Of a stretch of DNA of 40,560 nt, positions 4,927-30,310 are shown piece after piece; position 1 is the first letter of the stretch; every line of letters starts with the position of its first letter. The stretch is from assembly GCA_043756885.1 (NCBI GenBank), contig JAYUQF010000146.1, positions 1-40,560 on the forward strand. The letters are read 5' to 3'. The position numbers and the translations under genes are program-made. The notes beneath the pieces were generated by a model. It made no database searches, was not told where the DNA came from, and saw only the letters and a program-made list of their open reading frames with translations. The stretch is from Pseudomonadota bacterium. Its GTDB lineage: Bacteria > Pseudomonadota > Gammaproteobacteria > Ga0077536.

Positions 4927-6234
4927 TCAACAATCCAGCGTGTTTTTTCTTTCCCACTCGCTCAAGTGCGCAGTGTACTCGCGCCACTCGCCCATTTTAA
5001 GTTTGATGTAGGAAGCGACAAAGTCTTCACCAAGCAAGGCGGCGATCTCTTTATTTTTCTCAAACAGACGCAAGGCGTCGAGCAGAGTGGCCGGCAGTTT
5101 TTTTGCCGATTTAACCGTGTGACCTTCTTCGTACATATTGATATGCAAAGGTGCGCCGGGATCACGCTTGTGGGCGATGCCGTCCAGGCCTGCGGCGAGG
5201 ATGCCGGCCTGGGCCAGATAAGGATTGGTTGAGCCATCAAGCAGGCGCAGCTCAAAACGTCCGGCATCGGGCACACGAATCATATGAGTGCGGTTATTGC
5301 CGGCATAGGTCACGGCATTGGGCGACCAGGTGGCGCCGGAGCTGGTGACGGGCGCGTTGATGCGTTTGTAGCTGTTGACGGTGGGATTAAACAGCGCGCA
5401 CAGCGAGGTGGCATGCTGCATGATGCCGCCCAGAAAATGATAAGCCAGCGGGCTCAGCCCTAGTGCATCGCGTGCGTTCAGGAATAAATTTTTGGCGCCG
5501 GTTTTGTCCCACACCGAAACATGGGCATGGCAGCCATTGCCGGTCAGATGGGGGAAGGGCTTGGGCATGAAGGTGGCGCGATAACCATGGTTCTCGGCCA
5601 CAGTTTTGACCATGTACTTAAAAAACACATGACGATCAGCGGTGACCAGCGCATCGTCGTAATCCCAGTTCATTTCGAACTGGCCATTGGCGTCTTCGTG
5701 ATCGTTTTGATAGGGCCCCCAGCCCAGTTCCTGCATGGCATCGCAGATCTCCCGGATGATCGGGAAGCGCCGCATCAACGCTTGCTGGTCGTAACAAGGC
5801 TTGTTTTGATCGTCGGCCGGGTCGGACACACTGCGACCATCGGCGCTGGTCAGAAAATACTCGCACTCAACGCCGGTTTTCATGCGGTAACCAAGCTTTG
5901 CAGCGCGTTCGATCTGACGCTTCAACACCACCCGTGGTGACGCTTCGACCTCAGCGCCGCTCATCCATAAATCGGCGGCCAGCCAGCCCACTTCGCGATT
6001 CCACGGCAGTTGCACCAGACTGGCGGGATCGGGACGGCCAAACATATCCGGATGGGCGGGTGTCATGTCCAGCCACACGGCAAAACCGGCAAAACCGGCA
6101 CCGTCACGTTGCATCTGTTTAATGGCACTGGCCGGTACCAGCTTGGCCCGCAGCGCGCCAAACAGGTCGACGAAGCTGATTAAAAAATATTTGATGCCTT
6201 TGGCTTTTGCGACTTGGGCCAGATCGGTAACCAT
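4927..6234 (-). CDS. gmaS: type III (GlnT-size) glutamine synthetase family protein, probable gamma-glutamylmethylamide synthetase
   Basis: The first codon of ORF 4927..6240 is TTG. The ATG at 6234 has a GGAG 6 nt upstream. The ~435-aa GS catalytic-domain protein lies between mgsC and mgdA, as in described NMG clusters. Confidence 0.85.
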   Translation of the reverse strand: MVTDLAQVAKAKGIKYFLISFVDLFGALRAKLVPASAIKQMQRDGAGFAGFAVWLDMTPAHPDMFGRPDPASLVQLPWNREVGWLAADLWMSGAEVEASPRVVLKRQIERAAKLGYRMKTGVECEYFLTSADGRSVSDPADDQNKPCYDQQALMRRFPIIREICDAMQELGWGPYQNDHEDANGQFEMNWDYDDALVTADRHVFFKYMVKTVAENHGYRATFMPKPFPHLTGNGCHAHVSVWDKTGAKNLFLNARDALGLSPLAYHFLGGIMQHATSLCALFNPTVNSYKRINAPVTSSGATWSPNAVTYAGNNRTHMIRVPDAGRFELRLLDGSTNPYLAQAGILAAGLDGIAHKRDPGAPLHINMYEEGHTVKSAKKLPATLLDALRLFEKNKEIAALLGEDFVASYIKLKMGEWREYTAHLSEWERKNTLDC

Positions 6235-6314
6235 GCTCAACTCCGTCAGGGGTGATTGTTGCGCCGCTTACACTCGCGCTTATACGCGCATGCACTCACA
6301 GCACTGCAAAGCAT

Positions 6315-7676
6315 TCAAAACTTGCTGTGGCCCGGTATCCAATCGGTGCCGGCCAAGGGTACTTTGGCCATAGCAGCCGCTTCGATAGTAAGCGCTACGA
6401 GATCTTCAGGCTCGAGGTTGTGCACATGACTCTTGCCGTTGGCACGGGCCAGAGTTTGAGTTTCAAGGGTCAGTACGCGCAAATAATTAGCGAGTCGTCG
6501 GCCCCCCAGTATCGGATCAAAACGCGCTGCGAGTGTTGCATCCTGAGTTGAGATGCCGCTGGGGTCACGGCCTTCGTGCCAGTCGTCGTAAAAACCTGCG
6601 GCGCTGCCCAGACGACGGTATTCATCCTCAAGGTCCGGGCTGTTATCACCCAGGGCGATGAGGGCCGCAACACCGATAGAGACCGCATCGGCGCCCATTG
6701 CAAGTGCCTTGGCGACATCGGCACCGGAACGTATACCACCGGACACGACCAACTGCACTTTGCGGTGCATGTCGAGTTCCTGCAGCGCTTCAACGGCCTG
6801 GCGCAGGGCCGGCAGGGTTGGAATGCCAACATGTTCAATGAATACATCCTGGGTCGCGGCCGTGCCGCCCTGCATGCCGTCCAGTACGATGACATCGGCG
6901 CCGGCTTTGACTGCCAGCGCGGTGTCGTAATAGGTGCGGGCCGCGCCGATCTTGATGTAGATCGGCTTTTCCCATTCGGTGATCTCGCGCAGTTCCTGAA
7001 TTTTTATCTTCAGATCATCGGGGCCCGTCCAATCGGGATGACGACAGGCACTGCGTTGATCAATGCCGGCCGGCAGATCACGCATTGCGGCGACACGCGC
7101 GGAGATCTTCTGGCCCAGCAGCATGCCACCACCACCCGGCTTGGCGCCCTGGCCGACCACCACTTCGATGGCATCAGCGCGGCGCAGATCGTCAGGATTG
7201 AGGCCATAACGTGAGGGCAGCACCTGGTAAACGAGCAGCTTCGAATGTTCACGCTCTTCGTGCGTCATGCCACCATCGCCGGTGGTGGTGCTGGTGCCGG
7301 CGATGCTGGCGCCACGGCCGAGCGCTTCTTTGGCGGGCCCGGACAGTGCACCAAAACTCATGCCGGCTATAGTGATAGGGATCTTGAGCTCGATAGGCTT
7401 TTTGGCAAAGCGGGTGCCGAGCGTAACGCTGGTATCGCAGCGTTCGCGATAACCTTCGAGCGGATAGCGCGACATGCTTGCGCCGAGAAACAGCAAATCA
7501 TCAAAATTCGGAATACTGCGCTTGGCACCGAAGCCACGAATGTCATAGATGCCCGTGCGCGCGGCGCGCTGGATCTCGGCGATCACGGTGCGCGGAAAGC
7601 TTGCCGATTCGCGTAAGCGCGATTGTAATTCTGCTTGCGCGAGCATCTCGCGATTGCGACGTCGCTTAGTAGGCAT
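6315..7676 (-). CDS. mgsC: FMN-binding glutamate synthase family protein (N-methylglutamate synthase subunit C)
   Basis: The GQGAKPGGGGMLLG motif is typical of the GltB FMN domain. The ATG at 7676 overlaps the mgsB stop by 11 nt. Confidence 0.88.
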   Translation of the reverse strand: MPTKRRRNREMLAQAELQSRLRESASFPRTVIAEIQRAARTGIYDIRGFGAKRSIPNFDDLLFLGASMSRYPLEGYRERCDTSVTLGTRFAKKPIELKIPITIAGMSFGALSGPAKEALGRGASIAGTSTTTGDGGMTHEEREHSKLLVYQVLPSRYGLNPDDLRRADAIEVVVGQGAKPGGGGMLLGQKISARVAAMRDLPAGIDQRSACRHPDWTGPDDLKIKIQELREITEWEKPIYIKIGAARTYYDTALAVKAGADVIVLDGMQGGTAATQDVFIEHVGIPTLPALRQAVEALQELDMHRKVQLVVSGGIRSGADVAKALAMGADAVSIGVAALIALGDNSPDLEDEYRRLGSAAGFYDDWHEGRDPSGISTQDATLAARFDPILGGRRLANYLRVLTLETQTLARANGKSHVHNLEPEDLVALTIEAAAMAKVPLAGTDWIPGHSKF

Positions 7677-26467: not shown

Positions 26468-28051
26468 ATGCCCGACGCGATGCGTCTGACCGATTACACC
26501 CGTTATGCCGATGCGCAGCGCTACTTCTCAAAAGAAGCGCTGTGGGCCTTGTTCGACGGTGGACGCGAGCGCTTGAATATCGCCCACGAATGTGTCGACC
26601 GCCATGTCGGGCGCGCAGACGGCGACGATGTTGCGATCCGAGTCGCCCATGCCGATGGTCGTGATGAACTCATCACCTTCAGTGAACTCTCAATATGGAG
26701 CGGGCGGGTCGCGACGGACCTGTTGACTCGCGGCATCAAACCCGGCGATCGCGTGGCGATGATGCTGGAACCTTCCCTGGCGTTTTACGCGGCCTTGTTT
26801 GGTGCGATGAAGGTTGGTGCGGTAGCGGTGCCGCTGTTTACCCTGTTTGGACCCGATGGCCTGGGTTTGCGCATGGCCGACTGCAGCCCGGCACTACTGT
26901 TGCTCGCGCCCGAGAAGCGTGAGTTGGCCGCAGCGGCAGGCACGGCAGTGGTGATCGCGGACGAACACTGGCTGGCACAGGTTGCCCACTGCGCGGTGCG
27001 AGCGCCGCTTGCCAGTAGTGCCGATGATTTGGCCTTGTTTCAGTACACCTCGGGTACGACGCGCGAGCTGCCCGAGGCGGTTAAACATCGTCACCGCGCC
27101 ATTGTTACCGTGGCGATCGCAGCGCTGTACGCAACCGGCGTGCGGCCGGGCGATCGTTATATGTGCCCGTCATCACCGGCCTGGGGGCATGGTTTGTGGC
27201 ATGGCACCCTGGCGCCCCTGGCGCTGGGTGTCAGTATCGCCGCCTATGCGGGCAAGTTTGATGCCGAGCGCTTGTTGCAGGCCCTGGCGGATTACCGCAT
27301 TACCAATCTGTCGGCCGCAGCAACCCATTATCGTCTGATGAAAAACACCGGTAACGCGGAGCGTTATCAATTTGCCATCGAAAAGCTGACTTTTACCGGC
27401 GAGCCCATCGACAGCGATACGGCGGCCTGGGCGCAGCGTGTTTTTGGTCCGCCAGTGTGCAGCATCTACGGCACCACCGAAGTGGGTGTGATCCTGGCCA
27501 ATTATCCCGGCGCCGACGATCTGCCGGTTAAACCCGGCTCGCTTGGCAAGCCGGTGCCAGGTGTCGAAGTGGCCATTCTCGATCACGAGGGCAAAGCCTG
27601 CGCACCAGAGGTTATCGGCGAGATCATGTTGCGGCGGGGCGAAGGCTGGTTTCCGACCAAAGATCGCGGCCACATTGATGCCGAAGGTTATTTTTATCAC
27701 AACGGTCGTGCCGACGATGTCATCATCTCGGCGGGGTGGACCATGAGCGCGGTGGAGATTGAAGACACCTTGCTCAAGCACGCCGATATTGCCGAATGCG
27801 CAGCGATTGGCGTACCGGATGAAACCCGCGGACAAGTGGTGAAGGCTTATGTTGTATCACCGCGTGCGCCCTCGGCCGAGTTTGTCCGCGAGATTCAAGA
27901 ATTCGCCCAGCAGCGCCTGAGCCGCCATGAGTATCCGCGTCAGGTCGAGTTTGTCACCGAATTACCAAAAACGCCGGCGGGCAAGGTTAATCGCAATGCC
28001 TTGCGTGCACGCAATCACTCAATAGTTGCCAGGGGAGTAAAAGATGAGTAA
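26468..28051 (+). CDS. AMP-dependent synthetase/ligase (acyl-CoA synthetase family)
   Basis: Adenylate-forming motifs FQYTSGTTRELPEAV (deviant P-loop), YGTTEVG, TKDRGHIDAEGYFYHNGRADDVI and PKTPAGKVNR. Confidence 0.88.
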   Translation: MPDAMRLTDYTRYADAQRYFSKEALWALFDGGRERLNIAHECVDRHVGRADGDDVAIRVAHADGRDELITFSELSIWSGRVATDLLTRGIKPGDRVAMMLEPSLAFYAALFGAMKVGAVAVPLFTLFGPDGLGLRMADCSPALLLLAPEKRELAAAAGTAVVIADEHWLAQVAHCAVRAPLASSADDLALFQYTSGTTRELPEAVKHRHRAIVTVAIAALYATGVRPGDRYMCPSSPAWGHGLWHGTLAPLALGVSIAAYAGKFDAERLLQALADYRITNLSAAATHYRLMKNTGNAERYQFAIEKLTFTGEPIDSDTAAWAQRVFGPPVCSIYGTTEVGVILANYPGADDLPVKPGSLGKPVPGVEVAILDHEGKACAPEVIGEIMLRRGEGWFPTKDRGHIDAEGYFYHNGRADDVIISAGWTMSAVEIEDTLLKHADIAECAAIGVPDETRGQVVKAYVVSPRAPSAEFVREIQEFAQQRLSRHEYPRQVEFVTELPKTPAGKVNRNALRARNHSIVARGVKDE

Positions 28052-29189
28052 CACCAATCGCAGCGAGGAATTCCCGCGCATCACCGACCAAGGGCTGGAA
28101 GATCTTCAGCGCCGTATCAATGTGCGTATCGCCCAAGAACCTGAGCCCTGGTGCCATGAAGCCACACGCGACAACATCCGCCATTACGCCCACGGTATCG
28201 GCGACGATAATCCGCTGTGGTGCGAGCCCGAATATGCGCGTAATACCTCCTACGGCGGTCTCATTGCCTGCCCGTCGTTTTTATTCGCTTGTTCGCGTAT
28301 CGCTTCGGGTTATGTCGGCGGGTTGCCGGGCATCCATGCGATGTGGGCGGGTGCAAATTGGGTGTGGTTCAAGGCCGCGCGTCGTAATGATGAGATATCC
28401 ACACAGTCGTGGTTAAAGGACCTGGTCCAGCACCAGACCAAGTTCGCCGGACGGGCCGTTCAACAGATTTACCACGTGGAATATTTTAATCAGAGCGGCG
28501 ATAAGCTGGCCGAAGTGGATAGCTGGTGTTTTCGTACCGAACGTGATGCCGCACGTGAACAAGGCACCAAGTACACCGCAGTAAAAGCCCGCGCGGAAAA
28601 ACGCTACAGCCCTGACGAACTGGCCGAGGTCTATCGGACCTATGCCAAAGAAGAAGTGCGCGGCGCGACACCGCGTTATTGGCAGGATGTCGAAGTGGGC
28701 GAGCGCCTGCCTACCCTCGCTAAGGGGCCGATGACGGTGACGGGATTCATCGCTTTTGCACAAGGCTGGGGTGGTCTGTACATCCGCGCCAACAAGCTCG
28801 CGTGGCGCATGATCCATGCCCATCCCGGTTTAGGTATTCCCAATCGTTTTAATATCCCCGATTGTCCGGAGCGGGTGCATTGGGAGCAGGATTTTGCGCT
28901 CAAGGTTGGCGCACCGGGGGCCTACGACTACGGTCCGGAACGGTGCTCGTGGCTGACCCATCATTTGACCAATTGGATGGGTGATGACGGTTTCCTGGTC
29001 TCATCGTCGAGCAAGATCCGTCGCCACAATCCTGAAGGTGATGTGCTGATGTTTAATGGCGAGGTGCTGCGCAAATTTGTCGATGAGCAGGGGCGGCATT
29101 GTGTGGAGGTAGCACAGCGTGCCGCAAATCAGGATGACGAGGAATCAATTATTGGCTCCGGTGTGGTGGCTCTGCCGGTGCGCGCTTAG
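28044..29189 (+). CDS. double hotdog-fold acyl dehydratase / (R)-enoyl-CoA hydratase-like protein (FAS1-like N-terminal + MaoC-like C-terminal domain)
   Basis: 381 aa. The ATG overlaps the ligase stop by 8 nt (ATGAGTAA) and has a GGGGAG Shine-Dalgarno sequence. The RHYAHGIGDDNPLW motif is typical of hotdog hydratases. Confidence 0.7.
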   Translation: MSNTNRSEEFPRITDQGLEDLQRRINVRIAQEPEPWCHEATRDNIRHYAHGIGDDNPLWCEPEYARNTSYGGLIACPSFLFACSRIASGYVGGLPGIHAMWAGANWVWFKAARRNDEISTQSWLKDLVQHQTKFAGRAVQQIYHVEYFNQSGDKLAEVDSWCFRTERDAAREQGTKYTAVKARAEKRYSPDELAEVYRTYAKEEVRGATPRYWQDVEVGERLPTLAKGPMTVTGFIAFAQGWGGLYIRANKLAWRMIHAHPGLGIPNRFNIPDCPERVHWEQDFALKVGAPGAYDYGPERCSWLTHHLTNWMGDDGFLVSSSSKIRRHNPEGDVLMFNGEVLRKFVDEQGRHCVEVAQRAANQDDEESIIGSGVVALPVRA

Positions 29190-29518
29190 GTGTCCGTCGG
29201 GTTCCTGGGGGCGCCGCTACCGCGTGCAACACACGGTGGAGAGCGCCAACCCGTCTAACGCGGTCTGAAGTCTGATCCGCGTGCCATCGGTAGCACGCTC
29301 ACCCGTCACAACACGCCCTGCGATGGTGCTTTAGACCCCGCTCGGCGTTATTTCGGCGCTGCCGCTGCGCGGCGTGCGGCACGTTCAACTCCCTGTGCAT
29401 AACACCCTCAAGTATCCGCAAGTTTCGCTCGCTATAAGCGCCAGAGACGAGTGGGATACGGCTGGTATCCCGCACCGGCAGCGCTCCTACGTGCCGACAA
29501 CATTTTACGGGTATTGTC

Positions 29519-30310
29519 ATGGCCAAATCCGCCGTCCAAGTTTCGCTACGCTCGCAGCCAAGCGAGCCAATTTTTGTCTTCGGCGCCGATATGGATGGGG
29601 ATTTTTCGCGTGGATCGGCCGCGATCGCGCAGCGCTACTTCAACGCTGACACCACCGTCTGCAGCGGTGCCAGCGGTCATGCTTACGCCGTTCCCTACCG
29701 CGATTGCGACGGCAAGTTCTTAAGTTTTGGCGCGCTGGCGCCGCATATCACCGCCTTTCTAAGTCACGCACGGGCCAATCCACAACAAGTTTTCATGATC
29801 GCCCACTTTGGCTGTGAAAGCGGCGGCAGCGACATAACGAGTATGGTGCGCCACTTCAGTCATCTGCCAGCCAACTGTTTGCTGCCTGGTCCATGGGCCC
29901 GTCACCTCGACGCTAAAAGTGGCGTACGTCTTTTGATTTTCGACCCCTTTGCGCGCTTCCGCGAGCCCTATTGGCAGGACAAGCTTAAGCGCTATCTGGC
30001 GCTCAATGCCGACACCTGTAATGGCGCGCAAGTTGAAGTTGTCAGCTTCGGTGGTGCACGTTCGCTGGTTGCCAACGACATGGCCGCCAAACGCCTGGGA
30101 CTAAAACATCGAGTATTCGGGCCCAACGAGACCTTTTTTGGCAAACACGCCGAGCTCGCTGCGGAAATGAAGGCGATGTGGTACTCAACGCACTTTTTAT
30201 CGCTCTGTGATTTCAGCCAAACCGTGCAGCCCCAGCAGTTCCGCGTGACAACCGCCGCGATCAGCGCCGGCTTGGTGATAGACCAACTGGAAGTGAGCGG
30301 CGCACTCTGA
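29519..30310 (+). CDS. hypothetical two-domain protein: A1S_2505-type phage-associated domain fused to a DUF2493/SLOG-like domain
   Basis: N-terminal half IFVFGADMDGDFSRGSAAIAQRYF...GASGHAYAVPYRD...FMIAHFGCESGG...LPANCLLPGPW follows the FVFGSN..G.HG.GAA..A...G.SYAIPT...IGCG.AG...P.NV.LP pattern. C-terminal half VEVVSFGGARSLVANDMAAKRLGLKHRVFGPNETFFGKHAELAAEMKAM follows the DUF2493 pattern HGGA.GAD..A..WA...G......ADW..YGK.AG..RN..M. No Shine-Dalgarno sequence. Confidence 0.5.
   Translation: MAKSAVQVSLRSQPSEPIFVFGADMDGDFSRGSAAIAQRYFNADTTVCSGASGHAYAVPYRDCDGKFLSFGALAPHITAFLSHARANPQQVFMIAHFGCESGGSDITSMVRHFSHLPANCLLPGPWARHLDAKSGVRLLIFDPFARFREPYWQDKLKRYLALNADTCNGAQVEVVSFGGARSLVANDMAAKRLGLKHRVFGPNETFFGKHAELAAEMKAMWYSTHFLSLCDFSQTVQPQQFRVTTAAISAGLVIDQLEVSGAL

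What the first reader, a model, noticed from the sequence alone, without database searches (positions are those of the whole stretch)
29519..30310. Stand-alone fusion of two phage-associated nucleotide-binding-type domains (A1S_2505-like + DUF2493/SLOG-like) in a non-phage context
Residues ~17-135 follow the signature of small phage 'non-structural' proteins (FVFGSN..G.HG.GAA...G.SYAIPT...IGCG.AG...LP), with substitutions at several usually invariant positions (FGAD, DFSRGSA). Residues ~165-255 follow the DUF2493 pattern (..GGA.G.D..A...A...G......W..YGK.AG..RN..M), again partly degenerate. In phages these normally occur as separate small ORFs. I do not know of a described fusion or of any assigned function. 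SLOG-type domains have been predicted to bind or process nucleotides or nucleotide-derived signals. There is no Shine-Dalgarno sequence, integrase or phage neighbour. It may be a domesticated or decaying remnant, or a one-gene sensor/effector.
Basis: inference. Interest (0 to 1): 0.6.

Follow-up and report, generated by a model that had tools for sequence, protein, structure and literature searches.

The report
Domesticated macrodomain–SLOG fusion with remodelled pockets
This is an intact, conserved bacterial gene that fuses a DarG-type ADP-ribose-removing (macro) domain to a YAcAr/SLOG nucleotide-binding domain. The fusion type is already described in phages, but here it is a chromosomal core gene whose usual catalytic and ligand-binding residues have all been replaced, so it probably does something other than the phage versions.

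Summary

**N-terminal domain (residues 14-132).**
- It passes NCBIfam A1S_2505_Nterm (78.6 bits, cut-off 45).

**C-terminal domain (residues 134-260).**
- Half of the full-length relatives hit PF10686 directly.

**The fusion is not new.** Aravind-group surveys describe phage SLOG-Macro fusions, and dozens of sequence clusters share the architecture.

**What is distinctive about this clade:**
- It is chromosomal and vertically inherited: 10/10 genomes of the genus, 18/24 of the family, often with a paralogue.
- It is stand-alone among metabolic genes and under strong purifying selection (dN/dS about 0.04-0.1).
- The experimentally defined DarG2/AdfM catalytic Asn and Lys are Asp24 and Arg61.
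- The YAcAr GxD, RN and SxGT motifs are also replaced.

It is therefore not a decaying remnant. It is most likely a repurposed binder, or an enzyme with altered specificity, for an ADP-ribose-like anionic ligand. The function is untested. I class it as a new variant of a known kind, of moderate interest. The scan had already noted phage macro and SLOG genes on other DNA.

The parts
29519..30310 (+). Whole CDS (263 aa plus stop): macrodomain-SLOG fusion protein
   Evidence: The ORF was listed and translated. There are 22 full-length orthologues at 39-88% identity, all starting MA(K/T)(P/S)A. dN/dS is 0.04-0.10 for the closest pairs.
29558..29914 (+). N-terminal domain, residues 14-132: compact DarG2/AdfM-type macrodomain (NCBIfam A1S_2505_Nterm, phrog_2072)
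29588..29590 (+). Codon for Asp24, at the position of the catalytic Asn (T. aquaticus DarG2 N22, PhiKZ AdfM N23)
   Evidence: The register comes from hhalign. The roles of N22/N23 and the inactive N23A mutant come from PMC13309987. 46 of 56 full-length relatives (45 besides the query) have Asn here; the query has Asp.
29696..29701 (+). Codons for Tyr60-Arg61, at the position of the T-K of the PTK motif (DarG2 K80, AdfM K78)
   Evidence: The register comes from hhalign. T77 and K78 are invariant in the AdfM-like alignment A5. None of the 14 closest sequences keeps the Lys, whereas about 30 of the 42 more distant ones do.
29918..30298 (+). C-terminal domain, residues 134-260: divergent YAcAr (PF10686, formerly DUF2493) SLOG domain with its signature loops replaced
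29190..29518 (+). 329-nt upstream intergenic region, presumed to hold the gene's own promoter and 5' UTR. It has a weak SD-like GGG at 29509-29511 and a perfect 7-nt inverted repeat at 29453-29471.
   Evidence: An intergenic gap of 180-330 nt precedes the gene in every orthologue locus. Only the last ~40 nt are conserved. The inverted repeat is GGGATAC-N5-GTATCCC. There is no Rfam match and no sigma-70 consensus.

Best explanation
The gene encodes a stand-alone cytoplasmic two-domain protein. A compact DarG2/AdfM-type macrodomain (the ADP-ribose-binding and -removing fold) is fused to a YAcAr-type SLOG domain (a Rossmann-like nucleotide-binding fold of the YpsA/DprA/LOG superfamily).

This architecture arose among phage and mobile-element proteins that are predicted, and for the macro part shown, to handle ADP-ribose adducts or ADP-ribose-derived signals.

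The window's copy belongs to a derived subfamily that became a vertically inherited chromosomal gene of one uncultured gammaproteobacterial family. It is often duplicated. In this subfamily the catalytic Asn/Lys pair of the macro pocket is Asp24/Arg61. The glycine-rich GxD loop and the RN and SxGT motifs of the SLOG pocket are replaced by a different, equally conserved set of residues rich in Arg and His.

My reading is that it no longer works as a DarG-type DNA ADP-ribosylglycohydrolase. It has been repurposed as a binder/sensor, or as an enzyme of altered specificity, for an anionic ADP-ribose-like or other nucleotide-derived ligand, in a housekeeping role and not a phage-conflict role.

- Shown: the domain identities, the residue replacements, conservation and selection, the distribution, and the lack of a conserved partner gene.
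- Inferred: loss of canonical catalysis, the nature of the ligand, and the housekeeping role.
For: **Domain identities.**
- NF049995 scores 78.6 bits.
- Profile-profile comparison with AdfM-like Pfam-Macro proteins gives 89%, E 2.2e-6.
- PF10686 hits 28 of 56 relatives, and hhalign gives 97.5%.

**Catalytic mapping.**
- DarG2 N22/K80 and AdfM N23/K78 are the active-site residues, and N23A is inactive (PMC13309987).
- They align to D24 and R61 of the query.
- None of the 14 closest sequences keeps the Lys or the SLOG GxD loop. The modal state of more distant fusions is fully canonical (N, K, GxD, RN: 15 of 56).

**Selection and inheritance.**
- There are 22 full-length orthologues.
- dN/dS is 0.04-0.10, and tighter in the C-domain.
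- The gene is present in 10/10 genomes of the genus, 18/24 of the family and 1/16 other families, with no internal stops.
- A paralogue lies in the same genome.
- Synteny holds among orthologues at 71-89% identity.

**Stand-alone status.**
- No neighbour family is shared across subclades. The neighbours are housekeeping or metabolic genes.
- There is no PADLOC hit.
- A separate canonical MacroD-type macro gene exists in the genome.

**Literature.** SLOG-Macro fusions are predicted to process ADPr derivatives (PMC7824862 and PMC9503650).
Against: - No biochemical data exist for any member of this fusion family.
- Asp for Asn and Arg for Lys are conservative in charge and hydrogen-bonding terms, so some hydrolytic activity could persist. 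K-to-R and K-to-Q variants also occur in relatives with a canonical SLOG domain.
- The macrodomain link rests on a predicted structure and on a profile-profile score of 89%, which is strong but not overwhelming. Pfam Macro itself does not hit the protein, and comparison with MacroD-type macros is not significant.
- dS is saturated, so the dN/dS values are approximate.
- The host is uncultured, so there is no expression or phenotype evidence.
- The 'housekeeping' role is inferred only from context and distribution.
Confidence: 0.55

Rival explanations
1. It is still an active ADP-ribosyl hydrolase. Asp24/Arg61 form a variant catalytic pair, and the enzyme removes ADP-ribose from DNA, RNA, protein or a small-molecule ADPr derivative. 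The SLOG domain supplies substrate recognition or a second cleavage step, as proposed for the phage fusions.
For: The DarG-type macro fold and the diphosphate-loop 'GC..GG' are retained. Both domains are under strong purifying selection. K-to-R variants also occur in fusions with a canonical SLOG domain. The literature predicts a division of labour between Macro and SLOG on ADPr derivatives (PMC9503650).
Against: Both experimentally defined catalytic residues are changed. The SLOG signature motifs are also lost. No ADP-ribosyltransferase partner lies nearby.
Confidence: 0.25
2. It is a single-gene phage-conflict element kept by the host. One option is an orphan DarG-like 'antitoxin' that neutralises incoming DarT-type toxins. 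Another is a sensor/effector of a defence system.
For: Its relatives are phage counter-defence proteins (AdfM). Canonical fusions sit next to GmrSD and Vsr-like genes in mobile-looking contexts.
Against: There is no PADLOC hit. The neighbours in every subclade are metabolic or housekeeping genes, and there is no effector domain. Strict vertical inheritance with genus-wide retention is atypical for defence genes. The catalytic residues needed for anti-DarT activity are replaced.
Confidence: 0.08
3. The C-terminal SLOG domain works like DprA, as a single-stranded nucleic-acid binder. The protein acts on nucleic acids, for example by recognising modified DNA or RNA ends, and not on small nucleotides.
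Against: YpsA-clade matches score higher than DprA. There are no DNA-metabolism neighbours. Nothing has been tested.
Confidence: 0.1
4. It is a decaying remnant of a prophage gene with no function.
For: Usually invariant motif positions are substituted in both domains. There is no strong Shine-Dalgarno sequence.
Against: All copies are full length with no stops or frameshifts. dN/dS is 0.04-0.10. The replaced positions are themselves invariant within the clade. Composition equals that of the host. There are no phage genes nearby.
Confidence: 0.02

Closest known systems
Phage and mobile-element Macro-SLOG(YAcAr) fusion proteins, with or without an N-terminal DUF4326 domain, described computationally by Iyer, Burroughs, Anantharaman and Aravind (Viruses 2021, PMC7824862; Viruses 2022, PMC9503650)
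   Same: The two-domain order and length (about 250 aa) are the same. HMMER aligns the query to these proteins across both halves. Relatives carry PF10686, and some carry DUF4326. An Atlas cluster has the same fold at TM 0.79/0.82.
   Different: Those proteins keep the canonical Asn/Lys and the GxD/RN motifs and lie in phage or mobile contexts. The window's clade has replaced all of these motifs and is a vertically inherited chromosomal gene among metabolic genes.
DarG2 antitoxin macrodomain (T. aquaticus and M. tuberculosis; PDB 5M3E and 5M3I) and phage AdfM (PhiKZ gp104; Cell Rep 2026, PMC13309987)
   Different: The query's domain is about 25-30 residues shorter. It is not recognised by Pfam Macro. 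It has Asp24/Arg61 in place of the catalytic Asn/Lys. It has no DarT partner and carries a fused SLOG domain.
Pfam PF10686 YAcAr ('YspA, cpYpsA-related SLOG family', formerly DUF2493) and the B. subtilis YpsA structure 2NX2
   Different: The query is below Pfam detection. The signature SGGAxGxD, AGxxRN and DGxSxGT motifs are replaced, and there is a 3-residue insertion.
NCBIfam NF049995 'A1S_2505 family phage non-structural protein' (N-terminal domain) and PHROG 2072
   Same: The query is a bona fide member by score: 78.6 bits against a cut-off of 45, and E 1.7e-19.
   Different: The family names carry no functional information. The work here ties the family to DarG-type macrodomains. Typical phage members are single-domain proteins of about 110-150 aa.

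Membership tests
NCBIfam NF049995 A1S_2505_Nterm | HMM score above the curated cut-off of 45 bits | tested here: met
   78.6 bits over residues 18-126, covering profile positions 1-109 of 109.
Macrodomain, DarG2/AdfM/TARG1-like branch | Macro fold (three-layer alpha/beta with the ADPr cleft) | tested here: met
Macrodomain, DarG2/AdfM/TARG1-like branch | Sequence-level homology to certified Macro proteins | tested here: met
   hhalign of A3 against A5 (AdfM-like, PF01661-positive proteins) gives 89.2%, E 2.2e-6, over 114 columns. By contrast there is no direct Pfam PF01661 hit, MacroD-type macros score only 0.7%, and the PDB sequence-profile search finds nothing.
Macrodomain, DarG2/AdfM/TARG1-like branch | Catalytic Asn (DarG2 N22, AdfM N23) | tested here: not met
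   The aligned residue is Asp24. N23A inactivates AdfM (PMC13309987).
Macrodomain, DarG2/AdfM/TARG1-like branch | Catalytic Lys of the PTK motif (DarG2 K80, AdfM K78) | tested here: not met
   The aligned residue is Arg61, preceded by Tyr60 in place of Thr.
Macrodomain, DarG2/AdfM/TARG1-like branch | Binds ADP-ribose or removes ADP-ribose from a substrate | not testable with these tools
   This needs biochemistry.
Pfam PF10686 YAcAr (DUF2493), SLOG superfamily | Pfam HMM above the gathering score (28.2 bits) | tested here: not met
   There is no Pfam hit for the query even at E 10. None was found in the whole genome either.
Pfam PF10686 YAcAr (DUF2493), SLOG superfamily | Homology to PF10686-positive proteins, and the SLOG fold | tested here: met
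Pfam PF10686 YAcAr (DUF2493), SLOG superfamily | Signature glycine-rich GGAxGxD loop and the AGxxRN and SxGT motifs | tested here: not met
   They are replaced by FGGARSL, AELAAE and SQTVQPQQ.
DarTG toxin-antitoxin system | An adjacent DarT ADP-ribosyltransferase gene | tested here: not met
   The neighbours are an acyl-CoA synthetase, a MaoC-like dehydratase, an alpha/beta hydrolase and a luciferase-like oxidoreductase. No ART-like neighbour appears in any subclade. The genome-wide DarT search was negative, but its control rang nowhere, so that part is inconclusive.
Known anti-phage defence systems (PADLOC) | A match to any PADLOC model | tested here: not met
   No hits for the whole protein or for either half at E 10.

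The most novel reading that the evidence does not exclude
A phage counter-defence module (anti-DarT-type macrodomain plus SLOG) was captured by an uncultured gammaproteobacterial lineage, duplicated, and rebuilt in both ligand pockets at once. It became a housekeeping receptor or enzyme for a nucleotide-derived ligand that neither canonical macrodomains nor canonical SLOG domains recognise. That would be a new ligand specificity for both folds, and a clear case of a host domesticating a viral ADP-ribose toolkit.
Probability: 0.3. Interest if true: 0.55.

Novelty: new variant of a known kind. Interest (0 to 1): 0.4.

Why it matters
- It gives the uninformative 'A1S_2505 family phage non-structural protein' (NCBIfam) and PHROG 2072 labels a concrete identity: a compact DarG2/AdfM-type macrodomain. 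These labels cover thousands of phage proteins. The same result explains the stray 'ADP-ribosyltransferase' annotations as name-transfer errors.
- It documents that the phage Macro-SLOG fusion has a chromosomal, vertically inherited offshoot under strong selection in which both pockets are rebuilt. That makes it a natural experiment on how ADP-ribose-handling folds change function.
- No member of the Macro-YAcAr fusion family has been characterised biochemically, so this clade and its canonical cousins form a ready-made comparison set.
- It is not a new kind of system.

Tried and rejected
- **Direct Pfam scan** of the protein at E 10 gave no hit, so Pfam alone would have wrongly 'refuted' both halves.
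- **PADLOC** gave nothing.
- **Whole-model Foldseek against the PDB** returned only spurious two-domain Rossmann-like matches (methylene-H4MPT dehydrogenase, metformin hydrolase; TM about 0.25, rmsd 14-16 A). I discarded these.
- **HMM profile of the N-domain against PDB sequences** found no macrodomain, only chance hits at E above 0.09.
- **hhalign of the N-domain against MacroD/YmdB-type macros** from 24 genomes gave 0.7% probability, which is not significant. The link appears only with DarG2/AdfM-type macros.
- **Rfam** on the locus found no match. The promoter scan found no sigma-70 consensus, and the terminator-like hits were at chance level.
- **Search for a conserved partner gene** across 24 loci found none. 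An AMP-binding homologue recurs near two subclades, but such paralogues are very numerous in these genomes.
- **The search for related loci with the diverse alignment A2** failed because it had no conserved stretch. I repeated it with A1.
- **DarT (PF14487) in the window's own genome** gave no match, but the control genomes were silent too and the genome is 80% complete, so this is uninformative.
- **The 2015 NAR paper defining SLOG and YAcAr** is not in the library.
- **Locus L062** comes from the unpublished genome G063.

Full report
**1. Observation**

Pfam finds nothing in it even at E 10. Two other libraries confirm the N-terminal assignment:
- NCBIfam NF049995 'A1S_2505_Nterm' covers residues 18-126 at 78.6 bits, above its cut-off of 45.
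- PHROG 2072 (function unknown) covers residues 7-132 at E 1.7e-19.

PADLOC has no match.

**2. The family**

A word-indexed search found 22 full-length orthologues at 39-88% identity. All are 250-296 aa, have the same start (MA[KT][PS]A) and show no truncations. The C-terminal half is the more conserved.

An exhaustive profile search of 1.84 billion cluster representatives found 3,553 clusters at E <= 1e-3. Most are single-domain phage-size proteins that match only the N-half. About a third of the best 150 are proteins of roughly 250 aa that align to the query in one stretch across both halves, and some are 320-345 aa with an N-terminal extension.

Scanning 56 such full-length relatives against Pfam gave:
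- PF10686 YAcAr, the renamed DUF2493: 28 hits, best E 4.6e-19.
- The DprA family: 12 hits.
- DUF4326: 5 hits.

P0053, for example, carries PF10686 at residues 124-190.

A direct profile-profile comparison of the clade's C-half with PF10686-type C-halves gives 97.5% probability, E 5e-12, over 98 columns. A reversed-sequence control gives 0.3%.

**3. Folds**

The AlphaFold2 model of the whole protein (pLDDT 85, pTM 0.81) is a two-domain alpha/beta protein.

I then folded the N-domain alone with a 25-sequence alignment of phage relatives (pLDDT 91.8) and searched again:
- Foldseek gives probabilities of 0.97-1.00 and TM 0.5-0.67 for macrodomains, though its E-values are only 8e-3 to 0.1.

The ESM-Atlas fold search found a 254-aa bacterial cluster with the same two-domain fold (TM 0.79/0.82) in which 27% of members carry PF10686. 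It also found viral single-domain clusters named 'A1S_2505 family' and, wrongly, 'ssDNA thymidine ADP-ribosyltransferase'.

**4. Sequence-level link to DarG/AdfM and the catalytic residues**

Two tests failed to reach macrodomains: an HMM of the N-domain against PDB sequences, and hhalign against MacroD/YmdB-type macros from 24 genomes (0.7%).

Following a lead in earlier scan notes, I read Morgan et al. (Cell Rep 2026, PMC13309987). PhiKZ gp104 (AdfM) is a DarG2-like macrodomain that removes DarT2-added ADP-ribose from DNA. The active-site residues are N22/K80 in T. aquaticus DarG2 and N23/K78 in AdfM, and N23A is inactive.

I fetched gp104 from the phage collection and collected 131 relatives, nearly all PF01661-positive. 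I aligned 28 diverse ones and compared the profiles. The result was 89.2% probability, E 2.2e-6, over 114 columns.

The register is unambiguous:
- The family's VFGS**N**LAGrHGxGAA aligns with AdfM VNPV**N**CVGVMGAGLA.
- YAIPT**K**D aligns with NFPT**K**xxW.
- TRIGCGxAGY aligns with PPLGCGxGGL.

The A1S_2505-type domain is therefore a compact DarG2/AdfM-type macrodomain. In the window's protein the two catalytic positions are Asp24 and Arg61, with Tyr60 in place of Thr. The diphosphate loop reads GCESGG.

**5. Both pockets are remodelled, and the changes go together**

In the SLOG half, three signature motifs are replaced:
- SGGAxGxD is SFGGARSL.
- GKxAGxxRN is GKHAELAAE.
- DGxSxGT is DFSQTVQPQQ, with a 3-residue insertion.

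Across the 56 full-length relatives, the commonest state is fully canonical (Asn, Lys, GxD and RN: 15 of 56). Among the 14 sequences nearest the window, none keeps the Lys and none keeps the GxD loop. These sequences are kin, so this may be a single evolutionary event.

The replacement residues are themselves invariant or nearly so within the clade. They include many Arg and His in the C-domain: R137, R158, R181, H197, R198, H225 and R242.

**6. Not decaying**

Pairwise Nei-Gojobori dN/dS for the closest orthologue pairs is 0.04-0.10. It is 0.02-0.07 in the C-domain and 0.04-0.11 in the N-domain. dS is saturated, so these values are approximate. No copy has an internal stop.

**7. Distribution and context**

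The whole window is metabolic. It encodes sarcosine oxidase, glutamine and glutamate synthase, a BVMO, Fe-ADH, a beta-lactamase-family protein, an acyl-CoA synthetase, a MaoC-like dehydratase, an alpha/beta hydrolase, luciferase-like oxidoreductases, a 2OG oxygenase, a PQQ dehydrogenase with its Rieske partner, HDOD and GST. There is no tRNA, integrase or phage gene, and GC content is uniform.

The gene follows a 329-nt intergenic region and converges on the downstream hydrolase gene, so it is monocistronic. Orthologues at 71-89% identity are fully syntenic. More distant members sit in other neighbourhoods that are also housekeeping in character: GNAT/MscS/amidase, a DEAD-box helicase, or PLP decarboxylase/SIMPL/CstA. 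No neighbour family is shared by all subclades.

In whole genomes the gene is present in 10/10 members of the genus, 18/24 of the family and 1/16 other families of the class. The family members without it are mostly genomes of 1.7-2.2 Mb or incomplete ones.

The window's own genome has a 261-aa paralogue on contig C12, next to amidase, MscS-like and GNAT genes. About half the genus keeps both copies, and one genome has a tandem pair. All named records are uncultured Gammaproteobacteria MAGs. The genome also encodes an ordinary MacroD-type macrodomain.

By contrast:
- Canonical fusions lie in mobile-looking contexts, next to GmrSD, a Vsr-like endonuclease, AAA_25 and SLT.
- In 278 sequenced phages only the N-half is matched.
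- In Rhodobacter phage RcIroh the macro-like gene, annotated 'ADP-ribosyltransferase', and a 137-aa 'DprA-like' gene are separate ORFs about 2 kb apart.

**8. What is known**

Iyer et al. [quoted passage not shown] Iyer et al. [quoted passage not shown] They also say these SLOG domains 'remain experimentally uncharacterized'.

The fusion as such is therefore described, though not tested.

**9. Interpretation**

The best-supported reading is a phage-derived Macro-SLOG protein that was captured and fixed in one gammaproteobacterial family, duplicated, and rebuilt in both pockets.

Both experimentally defined DarG/AdfM catalytic residues are changed, and so are all YAcAr signature motifs. The new residues are under strong constraint. 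I therefore think it no longer strips ADP-ribose from DNA. It more likely binds, or acts differently on, an anionic nucleotide-type ligand in a housekeeping role. This step is inference.

The main rival is a still-active hydrolase with a variant Asp/Arg pair, which I put at about 25%. A defence or antitoxin role and a DprA-like nucleic-acid-binding role are minor rivals. Decay is effectively excluded.

**10. Verdict**

- This is a new variant of a known kind.
- Interest is moderate (0.4), for two reasons. The work ties the opaque A1S_2505/PHROG 2072 family to DarG-type macrodomains. It also shows a domesticated, doubly remodelled offshoot of a phage ADP-ribose module.

Noticed in passing
G000 contig C12:2208-2987 (-), equal to L004 1093..1878 (-): A second full-length macro-SLOG gene (261 aa, 96 bits to NF049995) lies in the same genome, between an amidase and MscS-like/GNAT genes. 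It belongs to a separate paralogous subclade (about 46% identity) that about half of the genus also keeps. Its catalytic positions are also Asp and Arg (GTD..., IAFRD).
   Followed up: partly
L044 2492-2860 (Rhodobacter phage RcIroh gp56) and about 10 related Rhodobacter phages: The single-domain homologue of the macro-like domain is annotated 'ADP-ribosyltransferase', and an Atlas cluster is auto-named 'ssDNA thymidine ADP-ribosyltransferase'. This is probably a name mis-transferred from fused DarT-DarG entries: the similarity is to the DarG macrodomain (an eraser), not to DarT (a writer).
   Followed up: partly
window 29453-29471: A perfect inverted repeat, GGGATAC-N5-GTATCCC, lies about 50 nt upstream of the start codon. 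Its outer GGGA...TCCC is partly kept in two orthologue loci. It could be an operator or an RNA hairpin. There is no Rfam match.
   Followed up: partly
window 26468-29189; L009 3096-5794: The acyl-CoA synthetase / double-hotdog dehydratase pair stays adjacent to the gene even in the 59%-identity relative, where the pair is inverted to a divergent orientation. An AMP-binding homologue also recurs three genes upstream in the paralogous subclade. This may be chance, given the many such paralogues.
   Followed up: partly
G021:C54:117963-119533; L041 around 6001-6736: Tandem duplicates of the macro-SLOG gene occur in two other genomes, which suggests recurrent duplication in this family.
   Followed up: no
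L028 (CAMCBY010000045.1) and L037 (CALRPY020000030.1): Contigs carrying clade members, and syntenic with the gammaproteobacterial MAG loci, are titled 'MAG: Klebsiella pneumoniae' and 'MAG: Hydrogenophaga intermedia'. These look like mislabelled or mis-binned records.
   Followed up: no
L077 7001-8727: A canonical fusion of a ~90-aa N-terminal extension (Pfam-unassigned) + macro + YAcAr (331 aa) sits next to a GmrSD-type type IV restriction gene and near Vsr-like, AAA_25 and SLT genes, in what looks like a mobile or defence-island setting.
   Followed up: no
G000 contig C619:4564-4902 (+), locus L045: The genome also encodes an ordinary MacroD/YmdB-type macrodomain protein (152 bits to PF01661), so canonical macro activity is supplied separately.
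   Followed up: no
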